A stretch of DNA of 64,000 nt from the sequence record OR983333.1; one strand, written 5' to 3'. Under the pieces are notes generated by a model. That model worked only from the letters and a program-made list of their open reading frames with translations, ran no database searches and had not been told where the DNA came from. A program made the translations under genes and the position numbers. Shown piece by piece: positions 47,368-49,525 of the stretch (position 1 is the stretch's first letter; the number at the start of each line of letters is the position of its first letter). Origin of the DNA: Escherichia phage 1-6af.

Positions 47368-47679
47368 CTATTTAAGTTTGAGGCTAATATTAAGGTGCAT
47401 ACATGCCCTGTTCTGTACAGCAGCATAGCTTCTACCGAGCATGTCAGCCATTCTCTGAATAGACATGAACCCAGCATTACGGATAAGGAACTGGTCTTCT
47501 TCTTCAGACCATTTAACTCGGATTGAAGCTCTTGATATTCCGAATTTAGTGCAAGCTGTATTAACTGCATTCTCCGTTACATTCATAATCTGAGCAACTT
47601 CTTTAACCGAGTACTCTTTGATTAGTCTCCGAAGATTTTCAATCTGCATCGGAGTCCATATAGTTCTTCGTGCTTTCAT
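47368..47679 (-). CDS. HTH DNA-binding protein (two tandem HTH-like repeats)
   Basis: Two repeats of W..E......S..E.A.....AV pattern (sigma region-4 / Myb-like); GGAGG RBS. Confidence 0.45.
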   Translation of the reverse strand: MKARRTIWTPMQIENLRRLIKEYSVKEVAQIMNVTENAVNTACTKFGISRASIRVKWSEEEDQFLIRNAGFMSIQRMADMLGRSYAAVQNRACMHLNISLKLK

Positions 47680-47706
47680 ACATCCTCCAATTAGATATTA
47701 TTCGAT

Positions 47707-47853
47707 TTGGTTACAGGTGTAGGATTCGAACCTACGCTCGGACTCCCTAGCCATCACCAAAGGAATGCATCCAATGGGCATACGGTCATTTGACCACGGG
47801 CGACTGCTTTACCGTAGGCTCTGCATTAGTGAGCCTCATAAGCTATACCTGTA
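47707..47853 (-). other. tRNA-like element of non-canonical length
   Basis: Minus strand reads GTAGG-TTCGAAT-CCTAC (T-arm), ACCTGTA, A, CCA; the only complementary 5' acceptor (TACAGGT) lies about 147 nt upstream, so no standard cloverleaf. Confidence 0.3.
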
Positions 47854-47982
47854 ACTAATTGCCAGGGATTCCACCTGGCTCCATCTGTTTTTAAAGTCAC
47901 TCAGATATCGTCCGGACTCTTTGCTGAGGGCCGTACAGGCTACTTCAAGTAACTGCTGTAAAGATTATTCCACAGCTTACCA

Positions 47983-48081
47983 CGATGAGGAGGTGCCTCA
48001 TCAGGAGAGTACACTAGCTCTGGGCCACGCCGTAGATATCGGCCTCCCTTCTACAGCTAATCAGCTAGTGTACTCTCCTGA
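47983..48081. repeat. nested inverted repeats (7-bp hairpin plus 20-bp perfect inverted repeat with 43-nt spacer)
   Basis: GATGAGG-aggtg-CCTCATC, then ATCAGGAGAGTACACTAGCT ... AGCTAGTGTACTCTCCTGAT. Confidence 0.6.
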
Positions 48082-48327
48082 TAATTTATAAATAGGGGGA
48101 GGGGACGAATCCTCCCTTATCCTATTAATTAGTATTGCATGTAAGATCTAACAATCGGTTGCCTTTGTAGGAATAAGCGTTATGCTAATCCAGCACTAAA
48201 CTCCCGCCCCCTTAGTGGGCTGGGTTATTAAAGGGTAACGCCCTTATGGGCTAGTTACATGAATGTTAGTTTGATAGGAGATCTGAAGTCCTATCTCAAA
48301 GGACTCTCGTAAGAATCCTTCACGATA

Positions 48328-48459
48328 TTACTTATTCATCTCTCGTCGGCTATCTCTCCAAGCCAACCAAGTGTAGGTTTTCAGTTCTTCAAAGTCTTCT
48401 GGAGAGAATAGATACTCTTTGAAGGTATCACCAAACCACTTTAAAAATTCTTCAGTCAT
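48328..48459 (-). CDS. hypothetical small protein (43 aa)
   Basis: Below cutoff; hand translation; weak AAGAGA RBS. Confidence 0.25.
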   Translation of the reverse strand: MTEEFLKWFGDTFKEYLFSPEDFEELKTYTWLAWRDSRREMNK

Positions 48460-49420: not shown

Positions 49421-49510
49421 TCCAAGAGCCTCTAGCGAGGATGACAGGGTTCGAACCTGCATACTCCAATTACTTCTTTAACGACCGCTTAGAAGGCGGG
49501 GAAGATACAT
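49421..49510. repeat. palindromic tRNA-like intergenic element
   Basis: 13-bp perfect inverted repeat TCTAGCGAGGATG ... CATCCTCGCTAGA enclosing GGTTCGAACC and a CCGC-CTTCTAA-GCGG stem-loop (minus sense). Confidence 0.45.
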
Positions 49511-49525
49511 CCTCGCTAGAAGCTC

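What the first reader, a model, noticed from the sequence alone, without database searches (positions are those of the whole stretch)
47680..48330. Intergenic stretch with a tRNA-like 3' end and a 20-bp perfect inverted repeat
The minus strand shows a canonical T-arm, a 7-nt acceptor strand, discriminator and CCA (47707-47734), but the only complementary 5' acceptor strand lies about 147 nt away, so this is not a standard tRNA. It could be a tRNA with an insertion or a tRNA-like processing signal. Nearby are a 7-bp hairpin, a 20-bp perfect inverted repeat with a 43-nt spacer (47999-48081) and further GC-rich hairpins. Long stems in a polycistronic early transcript resemble RNase III processing sites.
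Basis: partly seen in the sequence, partly recalled or inferred. Interest (0 to 1): 0.6.

Follow-up and report, generated by a model that had tools for sequence, protein, structure and literature searches.

The report
Expanded tRNA-like RNA gene island
The 650-base gap in this E. coli phage's early operon is a row of conserved structured-RNA cassettes, including a 146-nt RNA with tRNA ends but a non-tRNA core, that also sit inside the tRNA gene arrays of unrelated phages and are not annotated or catalogued.

Summary
The window is a Kuravirus (phiEco32/SU10-like coliphage), and the gap 47680-48327 lies on the transcribed minus strand of the early operon.

The tRNA-like 3' end closes a discrete 146-nt unit (47853->47708): 7-bp acceptor, canonical T-arm, discriminator A and CCA around a 111-nt non-tRNA core. 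It has a fixed length, three compensated base pairs, and sits in a tRNA slot of Klebsiella schitovirus tRNA arrays. It is not a decoding or intron-containing tRNA, nor a tmRNA.

The 20-bp inverted repeat is the basal stem of a conserved ~87-nt RNA (14 of 31 pairs compensated, G.U wobbles strand-specific). Two further supported motifs flank it.

All are cassettes shared with the ORF-free RNA islands of N4-like phages. None is in Rfam.

Most likely mechanism (inferred): tRNA-type processing (RNase P, 3' trimming) releases a stable RNA, analogous to T4 RNA C, whose role is unknown. The long stem is a plausible RNase III substrate. Expression is untested.

Interest is moderate to high: new variants of a known but unexplained kind.

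The parts
47708..47853 (-). 146-nt expanded tRNA-like RNA gene. Acceptor stem is 47853->47847 with 47718->47712. Helix P2 with a 9-nt loop is 47836->47816. Three-part helix P5 is 47782->47752. T-arm is 47735->47719. Discriminator A is 47711 and CCA is 47710->47708.
   Evidence: Unique in the window and expected 0.015 times by chance. Fixed 146-nt length in 6 distinct copies from kuraviruses and Klebsiella schitoviruses. 99.5% of cells pair, with 3 compensated pairs (6:137, 20:36, 84:90), and 0 of 500 shuffles reach the covariation score. In GADU21/HS106 it occupies a tRNA slot between tRNA-Tyr and tRNA-Ser with 3-6-nt spacers.
47861..47917 (-). C2: a ~57-nt two-hairpin RNA motif, GUC-CRGA-CGAUA-UCUG-AGU-GAC, then an A-rich linker, then GCCAGG-UGGAAUC-CCUGGC. 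It lies 7 nt upstream of the tRNA-like unit.
   Evidence: Most of the 144 phage records matching module C do so through this segment: N4-like phages, Klebsiella phages, Salmonella 9NA, Shigella DS8. It also occurs in 14 E. coli genomes (the one examined lies in a phage-like region). 100% of cells pair and 4 of 12 pairs are compensated.
47928..47981 (-). C1: a conserved segment shared with Gamaleyavirus VTCCBPA_322 and with Rak2-like jumbo phages, where it lies near tRNA genes. Its structure is unresolved.
   Evidence: 81-89% matches. Changes in a possible GUAA-G-CUG/CAG-UUAC stem are G.U-compatible, but this was judged by eye only.
47998..48084 (-). Module B: a ~87-nt structured RNA. The inner helix is 48057->48050 with 48036->48029. 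The loops GAUUA and GCGUGGCCCAG are invariant.
   Evidence: 48 phage records and 14 distinct copies. 14 of 31 pairs are compensated, 96.5% of cells pair, and 0 of 500 shuffles reach the observed values. G.U wobbles (e.g. pair 19:77 is U.G in 12 of 14) pair only in minus-strand RNA.
48087..48327 (-). Module A: a ~240-nt conserved non-coding segment. It has a 7-bp hairpin at 48295->48273, a long-range helix CUAGC/GUUAG (48254->48250 with 48152->48148), and a terminal GC hairpin at 48116->48097 followed by a U/A-rich tail.
   Evidence: 102 phage records cover at least 80% of it. The first hairpin has 2 compensated pairs, and the long-range helix changes only by G.U. The terminal hairpin scores as terminator-like and is invariant, so it cannot be tested by covariation.
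47368..47679 (-). Downstream early gene for a small HTH (sigma-70 region 4-like, 'D5-like regulator') protein. RBS GGAGG is at 47688->47684. The start codon lies 28 nt after the unit's CCA.
   Evidence: PF08281, 31.8 bits.
48328..48459 (-). Upstream 43-aa early ORF that bounds the non-coding gap.
   Evidence: Homologues are annotated in SU10, EcoN5, ShigP1 and ES17.

Best explanation
The gap is an island of independent structured-RNA genes embedded in the early, host-RNA-polymerase-transcribed operon of a kuravirus. It is homologous, cassette by cassette, to the ORF-free RNA islands and tRNA arrays of N4-like phages (Schitoviridae).

The tRNA-like 3' end belongs to a 146-nt RNA. Its two ends form a canonical acceptor/T-arm minihelix with discriminator A, encoded CCA and U at position -1. 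The D-arm, anticodon arm and variable region are replaced by a 111-nt multi-helix core.

Inferred mechanism: RNase P cuts 5' of U47853. Endonucleolytic cleavage plus 3' exonuclease trimming stops at CCA (47708). T-loop enzymes may modify the RNA. The result is a stable, non-decoding RNA that uses tRNA ends as a processing and stability handle for its core. This is the same design as phage T4's unexplained RNA C.

As a by-product, excision severs the early transcript 28 nt before the HTH regulator gene.

The 20-bp inverted repeat is the basal stem of a second conserved RNA (module B). Its ~21-bp helix is a plausible RNase III substrate that would release or delimit a conserved apical domain.

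The core's function is unknown. My best guess is a tRNA or translation-factor mimic or decoy in the phage-host conflict over tRNAs.
For: Shown by tool results:
- **Identity of the window.** Kuravirus, 99.9% identical to phages 1-6bf and FH3. Genes run on the minus strand.
- **Modular make-up of the gap** across relatives.
- **Uniqueness.** The unit is the only one in the window and is improbable by chance.
- **Conservation.** Fixed 146-nt length at 94-100% identity across two phage families. Homology starts within 1-5 nt of the 5' acceptor strand.
- **Array context.** In GADU21, HS106 and IMG/VR contig L014 it lies between tRNA-Tyr and tRNA-Ser, with spacers like those between real tRNAs.
- **Covariation.** Three compensated pairs, and substitutions otherwise concentrated in loops.
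- **Sister class.** A 124-nt class with the same acceptor/T-arm/ACCA and 4 compensated pairs. The unit's covariance model scores it at 26-34 bits, against 22 bits or less for canonical tRNAs.
- **Other modules.** Module B and C2 covariation. The first hairpin of module A covaries.
- **Strand.** G.U wobbles show the minus-strand RNA is the selected molecule.
- **Promoters.** No internal sigma-70-like or gp36-type promoter on the transcribed strand.
- **Not host-derived.** No host-genome copy of the unit's interior was found in a pattern scan of 185,579 species genomes.

From the literature:
- SU10 CDS69-125 are early genes, transcribed from distant sigma-70 promoters with no terminator detected (PMC4281155).
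- T4 RNAC and RNAD come from the tRNA region and have unknown roles (PMC3014915). T4 rnaC has a 3' T-arm and closing stem.

From my own knowledge, not verified here: an acceptor/T-arm minihelix with 3' RCCA and U(-1) is sufficient for bacterial RNase P.
Against: - There are no expression or end-mapping data. Processing and stability are inferred.
- Diversity is low: 6 distinct sequences at 94% identity or more. Covariation for the 146-nt unit therefore rests on 3 pairs, and several predicted interior helices (cols 39-58, 59-70, 103-118) never vary.
- The unit is accessory. Only 10 kuravirus and 2 Klebsiella phage records carry it, and SU10, EcoN5 and ES17 lack it.
- One metagenomic kuravirus lineage has CCA changed to UCA and two mismatches in P2, which suggests relaxed selection there.
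- XT18 has C at T-loop position 55.
- The terminator-like hairpin at 48116->48097, if efficient, would reduce transcription into modules B and C.
- The window itself has no tRNA genes, so the array context is borrowed from homologues.
Confidence: 0.65

Rival explanations
1. The elements are cis-acting processing and stability signals only. The tRNA-like structure and the long hairpin would exist to cut the early polycistronic mRNA (RNase P / RNase III 'punctuation') and tune expression of the downstream HTH regulator gene. The excised RNAs would have no function of their own.
For: The unit ends 28 nt before the start codon of ORF 47368-47679. The region lies inside a long early transcript (PMC4281155). 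The ~21-bp stem length is kept across module B copies.
Against: The same cassettes sit inside tRNA arrays and ORF-free islands with no downstream cistron to regulate. The interior core and loop sequences are conserved far beyond what a cleavage signal needs. In kuraviruses the same gene is found with B only, B+unit, or B+C1+C2+unit upstream of it.
Confidence: 0.15
2. The gap holds decaying remnants of a tRNA array: a pseudogenised tRNA with junk inserted, plus hitch-hiking sequence, non-functional in this phage.
For: Patchy distribution. A variant has lost CCA and P2 pairing. The 5' linker UAUAGCU and the 3' 32 nt resemble tRNA sequence, with 84% identity to the 3' end of phage tRNA-Ser. The window has lost the tRNA-Arg that relatives carry.
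Against: Exact length conservation and compensated changes across two phage families. The 124-nt sister class is equally constrained. There is strong covariation in modules B and C2.
Confidence: 0.1
3. It is a genuine decoding tRNA, e.g. tRNA-Arg(CCU), interrupted by a ~62-nt intron that is removed after transcription.
For: ARAGORN with introns allowed reports tRNA-Arg(cct), intron at position 27 of 62 nt, with exactly the unit's boundaries.
Against: The 94%-identical GADU21 copy is called tRNA-Gln(ttg), and only at a relaxed threshold. The proposed anticodon-stem pair 25:97 is unpaired in 4 of 6 homologues, while the competing helix P2 covaries. From my own knowledge, an intron at position 27 of only ~62 nt fits no bacterial self-splicing intron class. 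The Rfam tRNA model gives no hit at E<=10.
Confidence: 0.04
4. It is the tRNA-like domain of a phage tmRNA-like (trans-translation) system, related to the SsrA-tag template cassette found next to module B in N4-like phages.
For: Schitovirus islands carry a conserved SsrA-like tag template (ANDDVVLMAA* / ANEEAYLMVA*) about 50 nt downstream of module B. The 124-nt sister unit lies in the same islands.
Against: The window and all kuravirus loci examined lack the tag template. The acceptor has C3:G70, not the G3:U70 alanine identity pair. ARAGORN and Rfam tmRNA models do not match the unit. The only in-unit 'tag' frame changes non-synonymously at compensated helix positions. The cassettes do not strictly co-occur.
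Confidence: 0.04
5. It is a DNA-level element, such as a protein-binding palindrome, an origin or a recombination site.
For: A perfect 20-bp palindromic arm pair in this strain.
Against: In relatives the stem contains G.U pairs, which would be A/C mismatches on the other strand or in a DNA cruciform. The twin phage 1-6bf already has a mismatch. Kuraviruses are annotated as virulent and no integrase was seen in the regions inspected.
Confidence: 0.02

Closest known systems
Phage T4 small stable RNAs C and D (species 1 and 2 RNAs; rnaC, rnaD)
   Same: Non-decoding RNAs of 119-139 nt, co-oriented with and adjacent to tRNA genes. rnaC ends in a canonical T-arm (CCGGG-UUCGAAU-CCCGG) closed by a terminal stem around a large non-tRNA interior. 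Their role is unknown (PMC3014915).
   Different: No sequence similarity: the unit's covariance model has no hit in the T4 locus at E<=10. T4 rnaC has only a short, imperfect closing stem and no encoded CCA. The unit here has a perfect 7-bp acceptor, discriminator A and CCA. It also moves as a cassette between phage families and, in this window, sits in an mRNA operon with no tRNAs.
Canonical (class II, long-variable-arm) tRNA
   Same: Acceptor stem, T-arm, T-loop UUCGAAU, discriminator, CCA, U(-1), a tRNA-array slot, and a 5' UAUAGCU motif resembling tRNA positions 8-14.
   Different: 146 nt long. No D-arm. The anticodon-like helix has a 9-nt loop. About 80 nt separate that helix from the T-arm. 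It is not detected by ARAGORN at default settings or by the Rfam tRNA model.
tmRNA (SsrA), including two-piece / permuted forms
   Same: An RNA whose ends form an acceptor/T-arm tRNA-like domain around a large non-tRNA interior. Related islands in N4-like phages carry an SsrA-like tag template.
   Different: No G3:U70, no tag frame, no pseudoknot series, less than half the length, and no model hit.
RNase III processing hairpins of phage T7 early mRNA (R1.1 type)
   Same: A ~20-bp stem between cistrons of an early polycistronic transcript made by host RNA polymerase.
   Different: Module B has a conserved, structured 45-nt apical domain with invariant loops. It also occurs in tRNA arrays of other phages, so it looks like an RNA gene rather than a bare cleavage site. 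Cleavage is untested.
Bacterial Y RNA-like YrlA (tRNA-mimicking ncRNA, also in phages; PMC4201824)
   Same: A non-coding RNA that mimics part of a tRNA, including the T-arm.
   Different: From my own knowledge, in YrlA the termini form the Ro60-binding stem and the tRNA-like part is internal. Here the termini are the acceptor stem with CCA. There is no Rfam Y-RNA hit, and no Ro60 gene was seen among the annotated neighbours.

Membership tests
Canonical tRNA (Rfam RF00005) | 7-bp acceptor stem, discriminator, 3' CCA | tested here: met
   TACAGGT/ACCTGTA + A + CCA. The pair at 6:137 covaries G:C <-> A:U.
Canonical tRNA (Rfam RF00005) | T-arm: 5-bp stem and 7-nt loop UUCRANY | tested here: met
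   GTAGG-TTCGAAT-CCTAC. XT18 has TCCGAAC.
Canonical tRNA (Rfam RF00005) | D-arm, and an anticodon arm with a 5-bp stem and 7-nt loop | tested here: not met
   The covarying helix P2 (18-23/33-38) has a 9-nt loop and uses the bases a D-stem would need. ARAGORN's alternative anticodon stem is broken in 4 of 6 copies.
Canonical tRNA (Rfam RF00005) | Length ~70-95 nt and a score above model thresholds | tested here: not met
   146 nt. No ARAGORN call at default settings. No RF00005 hit at E<=10.
Intron-containing bacterial tRNA | The same anticodon and exon structure are conserved among homologues, with a recognisable self-splicing intron | tested here: not met
   Called Arg(cct) here and Gln(ttg) in the GADU21 copy. 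The 'intron' is 62-65 nt at position 27. There is no group I intron hit in Rfam.
tmRNA | G3:U70 alanine identity pair in the acceptor stem | tested here: not met
   C3:G70 in all 146-nt and 124-nt copies.
tmRNA | Internal tag reading frame with a resume codon, detected by tmRNA models | tested here: not met
   None in the window. The tag template exists only in schitovirus loci.
T4 RNA C-type stable RNAs of phage tRNA clusters | Encoded within, and co-oriented with, a phage tRNA gene cluster | tested here: met
   Met for the homologues in GADU21, HS106 and L014. In this window no tRNA gene is present.
T4 RNA C-type stable RNAs of phage tRNA clusters | 3' T-arm plus terminal closing stem around a non-tRNA interior | tested here: met
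T4 RNA C-type stable RNAs of phage tRNA clusters | Sequence or model homology to rnaC/rnaD | tested here: not met
   Covariance model R1 finds nothing in the T4 locus L013 at E<=10.
T4 RNA C-type stable RNAs of phage tRNA clusters | Accumulates as a discrete stable RNA processed by tRNA-maturation enzymes | not testable with these tools
   Needs Northern blot, RNA-seq and RNase P assays.
RNase III processing site (T7 early type) | About two helical turns of dsRNA in an inter-cistronic position of a polycistronic transcript | tested here: met
   A 20-21-bp stem conserved in 14 copies. Early-operon context.
RNase III processing site (T7 early type) | Cleavage by RNase III in vivo or in vitro | not testable with these tools
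   No data.
Intrinsic terminator (end of module A) | GC-rich hairpin followed by a U-tract | tested here: inconclusive
   The consensus scan flags 48116->48097 with the tail CCUAUUUAUA. The tail is interrupted, and the hairpin is invariant so it cannot be tested by covariation.

The most novel reading that the evidence does not exclude
Virulent enterobacterial phages of unrelated families (Kuravirus, Schitoviridae, and some siphoviruses and jumbo phages) exchange a toolkit of small translation-machinery mimics as cassettes. The toolkit includes expanded tRNA-like RNAs (146, 124, 128 and 66 nt), the module B and C2 motifs, and an SsrA-like tag template. The 146-nt RNA would be a functional member. 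Its tRNA ends would give it tRNA-type maturation and access to tRNA-binding factors. Its core would act as a decoy, sponge or effector against host tRNA-targeting or ribosome-targeting defences, or would redirect a host tRNA or trans-translation factor.
Probability: 0.25. Interest if true: 0.8.

Novelty: new variant of a known kind. Interest (0 to 1): 0.6.

Why it matters
Phage tRNA arrays are currently explained by codon supply or by replacement of tRNAs that host defences cleave (PMC10264068). Nobody has explained the non-tRNA RNAs that live in those arrays. T4 RNA C and D are still described as having unknown biological roles (PMC3014915).

This locus shows that such RNAs form conserved, covarying and horizontally mobile families in well-studied coliphage groups (phiEco32/SU10-like, N4/G7C-like) that are being developed for therapy. 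There they are either unannotated or overlaid with spurious small ORFs.

The work gives exact boundaries and testable structures for at least three new RNA motifs. It also gives a tractable system of easily engineered E. coli phages, with natural variants that have or lack each cassette, for asking what tRNA-ended RNAs do.

It also exposes a possible phage SsrA-like tag template, which would be of independent interest.

Tried and rejected
- **ARAGORN default (tRNA and tmRNA):** nothing in the window.
- **Rfam at E<=10 on the gap:** only noise, CssrA at 16.5 bits and Clostridiales-2 at 13.5 bits.
- **Intron-containing tRNA:** rejected.
- **tmRNA reading of the unit:** rejected. ARAGORN at -ps80 invents a tag, ARGQMTVCPLDAFLW*, whose variable codons change non-synonymously at compensated helix positions.
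- **Host origin:** the E. coli genome search found only the C2 motif, in 14 genomes. The unit's interior is absent from 185,579 species genomes.
- **Type I-F CRISPR repeat mimic (RNA anti-CRISPR) for C1:** I recalled an 11-nt identity (GCCTGTACGGC) to the repeat from memory. It is not conserved in VTCCBPA_322 (GTCGGTACAGC) or 121Q, so I dropped it.
- **Sigma-54-like TGGCA...TTACA at the C2/unit junction:** wrong spacing and not conserved in other phages.
- **Internal promoters:** no sigma-70-like or gp36 (tAATGTAtA) promoter on the minus strand in the gap.
- **Tiny ORF in C2 (MEPGGIPGN*):** it has no Shine-Dalgarno sequence, variable ends, and changes at second codon positions, so an RNA motif is preferred.
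- **Shared UUGGACUAAG between the 124-nt unit and E. coli ssrA:** this rested on my misremembering. The real ssrA reads GACUGACUAAG, so only a 7-mer is shared.
- **Literature searches** for descriptions of these RNAs in phiEco32-like or N4-like phages found none. The csRNA catalogue in PMC10690425 may contain them unnamed; I did not check.
Full report
**What the window is.** The 1.4 kb around the finding is 99.9% identical to Escherichia phages 1-6bf and FH3 and about 93-95% identical to many other kuraviruses (phiEco32/SU10-like C3 podophages). All ORFs nearby are on the minus strand. The stretch 47680-48327 has no credible ORF and lies between a 43-aa ORF (48328-48459) and a 103-aa HTH protein gene (47368-47679; PF08281 at 31.8 bits). 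The SU10 genome paper places the homologous genes (CDS69-125) in the early class, transcribed from sigma-70 promoters far upstream with no terminator detected at the end (PMC4281155). I found no sigma-70-like or phage gp36-type (tAATGTAtA) promoter on the transcribed strand in the gap.

**Checking the observation.** On the minus strand the sequence GTAGG-TTCGAAT-CCTAC-ACCTGTA-A-CCA runs 47735->47708. The only perfect complement of the 7-nt acceptor strand, TACAGGT, is at 47853->47847, giving a 146-nt unit. I wrote a scanner for a T-arm, a 7-nt acceptor strand, any discriminator, CCA, and a pairing 5' strand 55-270 nt upstream. It finds only this unit in all 64 kb on both strands. Dinucleotide shuffles give 0.015 per window. 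The perfect inverted repeat is at 48000-48019 / 48063-48082 with a 43-nt spacer. No shuffle gives perfect arms of 14 nt or more.

**The gap is modular.** I aligned the gap with XT18, SU10 and EcoN5 and then searched each piece separately. In transcription order:
- **Module A (48327->48087)** is present in essentially all kuraviruses: 102 records cover at least 80% of it.
- **Module B (48084->47998)**, which holds the inverted repeat, is in 48 records.
- **Module C (47999->47697)** is present in only a few records and is itself a mosaic of C1, C2 and the tRNA-like unit.

Kuraviruses occur with A only (EcoN5), A+B (SU10, ES17), A+B+unit (ShigP1), or A+B+C1+C2+unit (this window, XT18). The Gamaleyavirus VTCCBPA_322 has the same order: A-like, B, C1, C2, then a 128-nt and a 124-nt tRNA-like unit, all inside a ~1.8-kb ORF-free island. 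So the window's gap is a fragment of the RNA island of N4-like phages.

**The tRNA-like unit.**
- *Distribution.* Full-length copies occur in 10 kuravirus records and 2 Klebsiella schitoviruses (GADU21, HS106), in one IMG/VR contig and in 3 metagenome contigs. A pattern scan of 185,579 bacterial and archaeal species genomes found none.
- *Array context.* In GADU21 the unit occupies 1502-1647. tRNA-Tyr ends at 1498 and tRNA-Ser starts at 1654, so the spacing is that of an ordinary array member.
- *Boundaries.* Homology between kuravirus and schitovirus copies begins within a few nucleotides of the 5' acceptor strand and ends just past CCA. All copies are exactly 146 nt and are preceded by U(-1).
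- *Covariation.* Among six distinct sequences, three pairs show fully compensated changes: acceptor 6:137 (G:C<->A:U), helix P2 20:36, and helix P5 84:90. Two more changes are G.U-neutral, and most of the rest lie in loops. 99.5% of cells pair, and 0 of 500 shuffles reach the covariation score.
- *Sister class.* A 124-nt class in G7C-like and KP8-like phages shares the acceptor pattern UAC-NNN-U, the T-arm and ACCA, but has an unrelated interior. It has four compensated pairs. The covariance model of the 146-nt unit scores it at 26-34 bits, above every canonical tRNA (22 bits or less).
- *Other non-canonical units.* The same arrays hold further non-canonical units of 66/67 nt (annotated tRNA-Undet or tRNA-OTHER), 128 nt and about 116 nt.

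**What it is not.** ARAGORN at default settings and Rfam (E<=10, all 4227 families) find nothing. With introns allowed, ARAGORN calls tRNA-Arg(cct) with a 62-nt intron at position 27. The 94%-identical GADU21 copy becomes tRNA-Gln(ttg), and only at a relaxed threshold. The anticodon stem this requires has pair 25:97 unpaired in 4 of 6 homologues, whereas the competing helix P2 covaries. The acceptor has C3:G70 rather than G3:U70, there is no tag frame, and tmRNA models do not match. So it is neither a decoding tRNA, nor an intron-bearing tRNA, nor a tmRNA.

**The inverted repeat (module B).** Fourteen distinct copies from kuraviruses, Gamaleyaviruses and Klebsiella N4-likes fold into one structure. 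It has a ~21-bp basal stem with one unpaired position, an inner 8-bp helix, and invariant loops GAUUA and GCGUGGCCCAG. 14 of 31 pairs are compensated and 96.5% of cells pair. No shuffle reaches the observed values, and slid controls collapse to about 35-47% pairing. Most copies have U.G wobbles in the stem; pair 19:77 is U.G in 12 of 14. These pair only in RNA of the minus strand, which excludes a DNA-level palindrome. The perfect 20 bp is peculiar to this strain, and the 99.9% twin 1-6bf already has a mismatch.

**C2 and module A.** C2 (47917->47861) is a two-hairpin motif that most of the 144 matching phage records carry. These span N4-likes, Klebsiella phages, Salmonella 9NA and Shigella DS8. 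It also occurs in 14 E. coli genomes, and the one I examined lies in a phage-like region between portal and terminase genes. C2 usually sits 5-10 nt upstream of another structured unit. All cells pair and 4 of 12 pairs are compensated. Module A has a covarying 7-bp hairpin, a long-range helix, and an invariant GC hairpin with a U/A-rich tail that scores as terminator-like. C1 is conserved but I could not settle its structure.

**Mechanism (inferred).** From my own knowledge, not checked here: bacterial RNase P needs only the coaxial acceptor/T-arm helix with 3' RCCA, and U at -1 is favoured. Exonucleolytic 3' trimming stops at CCA, and TrmA and TruB need only the T-arm. All of these features are present and conserved in the unit. 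I therefore propose that it is excised from the early transcript like a tRNA and accumulates as a stable 146-nt RNA. The tRNA-like ends would serve as a handle and the 111-nt core would be the functional part. Excision would also leave the HTH gene on a new 5' end 28 nt upstream of its AUG. Module B's two-turn stem is a plausible RNase III substrate. None of this is demonstrated.

**Closest precedent.** The closest known case is T4 RNA C (139 nt), which sits in the tRNA cluster with a 3' T-arm and a closing stem. Its role is still unknown (PMC3014915). There is no sequence homology to it. Because phage tRNA arrays are proposed to counter tRNA-targeting defences (PMC10264068, abstract seen), a decoy or mimic role is my leading guess, at roughly 0.25-0.3.

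**Caveats.**
- Diversity of the 146-nt unit is low, and several predicted interior helices never vary.
- The unit is accessory.
- One metagenomic lineage has CCA changed to UCA and two P2 mismatches.
- XT18 has C55 in the T-loop.
- The window itself has no tRNA genes.
- If the module A hairpin terminates efficiently, downstream expression would depend on read-through.

**Side finding.** In 12 schitovirus loci, about 50 nt downstream of module B, there is a conserved SsrA-like tag template. It has an invariant upstream ...CAUAAAU, a resume codon GCA, and a frame encoding ANDDVVLMAA* or ANEEAYLMVA*. One phage keeps the peptide through two synonymous changes. Rfam's permuted-tmRNA model hits it below threshold (33.2 bits against 47). 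A slightly relaxed ARAGORN recognises the resume consensus and tag, but borrows its tRNA domain from neighbouring genuine tRNAs. It is absent from this window.

**Verdict.** The elements are conserved, mobile RNA genes rather than local processing signals. They are new variants of a known but unexplained kind of phage RNA.

Noticed in passing
L010 (Klebsiella phage KP8) 1312-1372; L009 (PhAPEC5) 1089-1149; also L015-L018, L020-L022, L024, L025, L028: An SsrA-like tag template about 50 nt downstream of module B in N4-like phages. The upstream ...AACAUAAAU is invariant, the resume codon is GCA, and the tags are ANDDVVLMAA* or ANEEAYLMVA*. PBM-3 keeps the peptide through two synonymous changes. 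It gives a sub-threshold Rfam tmRNA_permuted hit (33.2 bits against 47). No convincing tRNA-like domain with G3:U70 was found. It is absent from the window and from kuraviruses.
   Followed up: partly
L006 (phage N4) 1567-1632; L005 1566-1631; L009 1508-1573; L010 1730-1796: A 66-67-nt mini tRNA-like gene with acceptor UCCGGUG/CGCCGGA, a T-arm, A and CCA, and only ~31 nt in place of the D-arm, anticodon arm and variable region. It is always directly downstream of a C2 motif. Some records annotate it as tRNA-Undet or tRNA-OTHER; in N4 it is unannotated.
   Followed up: partly
L027 (VTCCBPA_322) 1724-1851; L028 (JZBo1) 1907-2022: Further expanded tRNA-like units of 128 nt and about 116 nt in schitovirus RNA islands. 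The 128-nt one shares the GGUAUAGCUU and UAAUGC motifs with the window's unit.
   Followed up: no
L010 (KP8) 1120-1195 and ~1441-1463: An odd 'tRNA-Leu' that ARAGORN does not call and Rfam's tRNA model does not match. It shares its acceptor sequence (UCCCCGU/ACGGGGA) with a microhelix + ACCA that ends the tag-template segment about 270 nt downstream.
   Followed up: no
window, whole; compare L002 3548-3622, L003 3622-3697, L004 3189-3264: This phage (and 1-6bf) has no tRNA gene at all. Related kuraviruses carry tRNA-Arg(tct) in the same early region, about 1.4 kb upstream of the gap. The equivalent inter-ORF space in the window (49470-49525) is too short for one.
   Followed up: partly
L029 (E. 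coli PT62 chromosome, phage-like region) 2501-2558; L030 (Salmonella phage 9NA) 1201-1257; L035-L037: The C2 motif also occurs outside tRNA arrays, in intergenic gaps of structural-gene regions of siphoviruses and in a phage-like chromosomal region. In several of these it is followed by the conserved sequence ACACAACAGGUAAGAGC.
   Followed up: partly
window 47885-47856 (minus strand): C2 contains a tiny frame, AUG GAG CCA GGU GGA AUC CCU GGC AAU UAG (MEPGGIPGN*). Its start and loop codons stay in frame in distant copies despite indels. It has no Shine-Dalgarno sequence and its ends vary, so it is probably incidental.
   Followed up: partly
L031 and L033 (metagenome contigs CYGL01003271, CYGL01000744): A kuravirus lineage in which the 146-nt unit has CCA mutated to UCA and two mismatches in helix P2. 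This may be a decaying copy.
   Followed up: no
L020 (Mimir124), L025 (Bas96), L009 (PhAPEC5): Automated annotation fills the schitovirus RNA island with many 30-70-aa 'hypothetical proteins' on both strands, overlapping the conserved RNA modules. One neighbouring ORF is labelled as an anti-CRISPR. These small ORFs are probably spurious.
   Followed up: no
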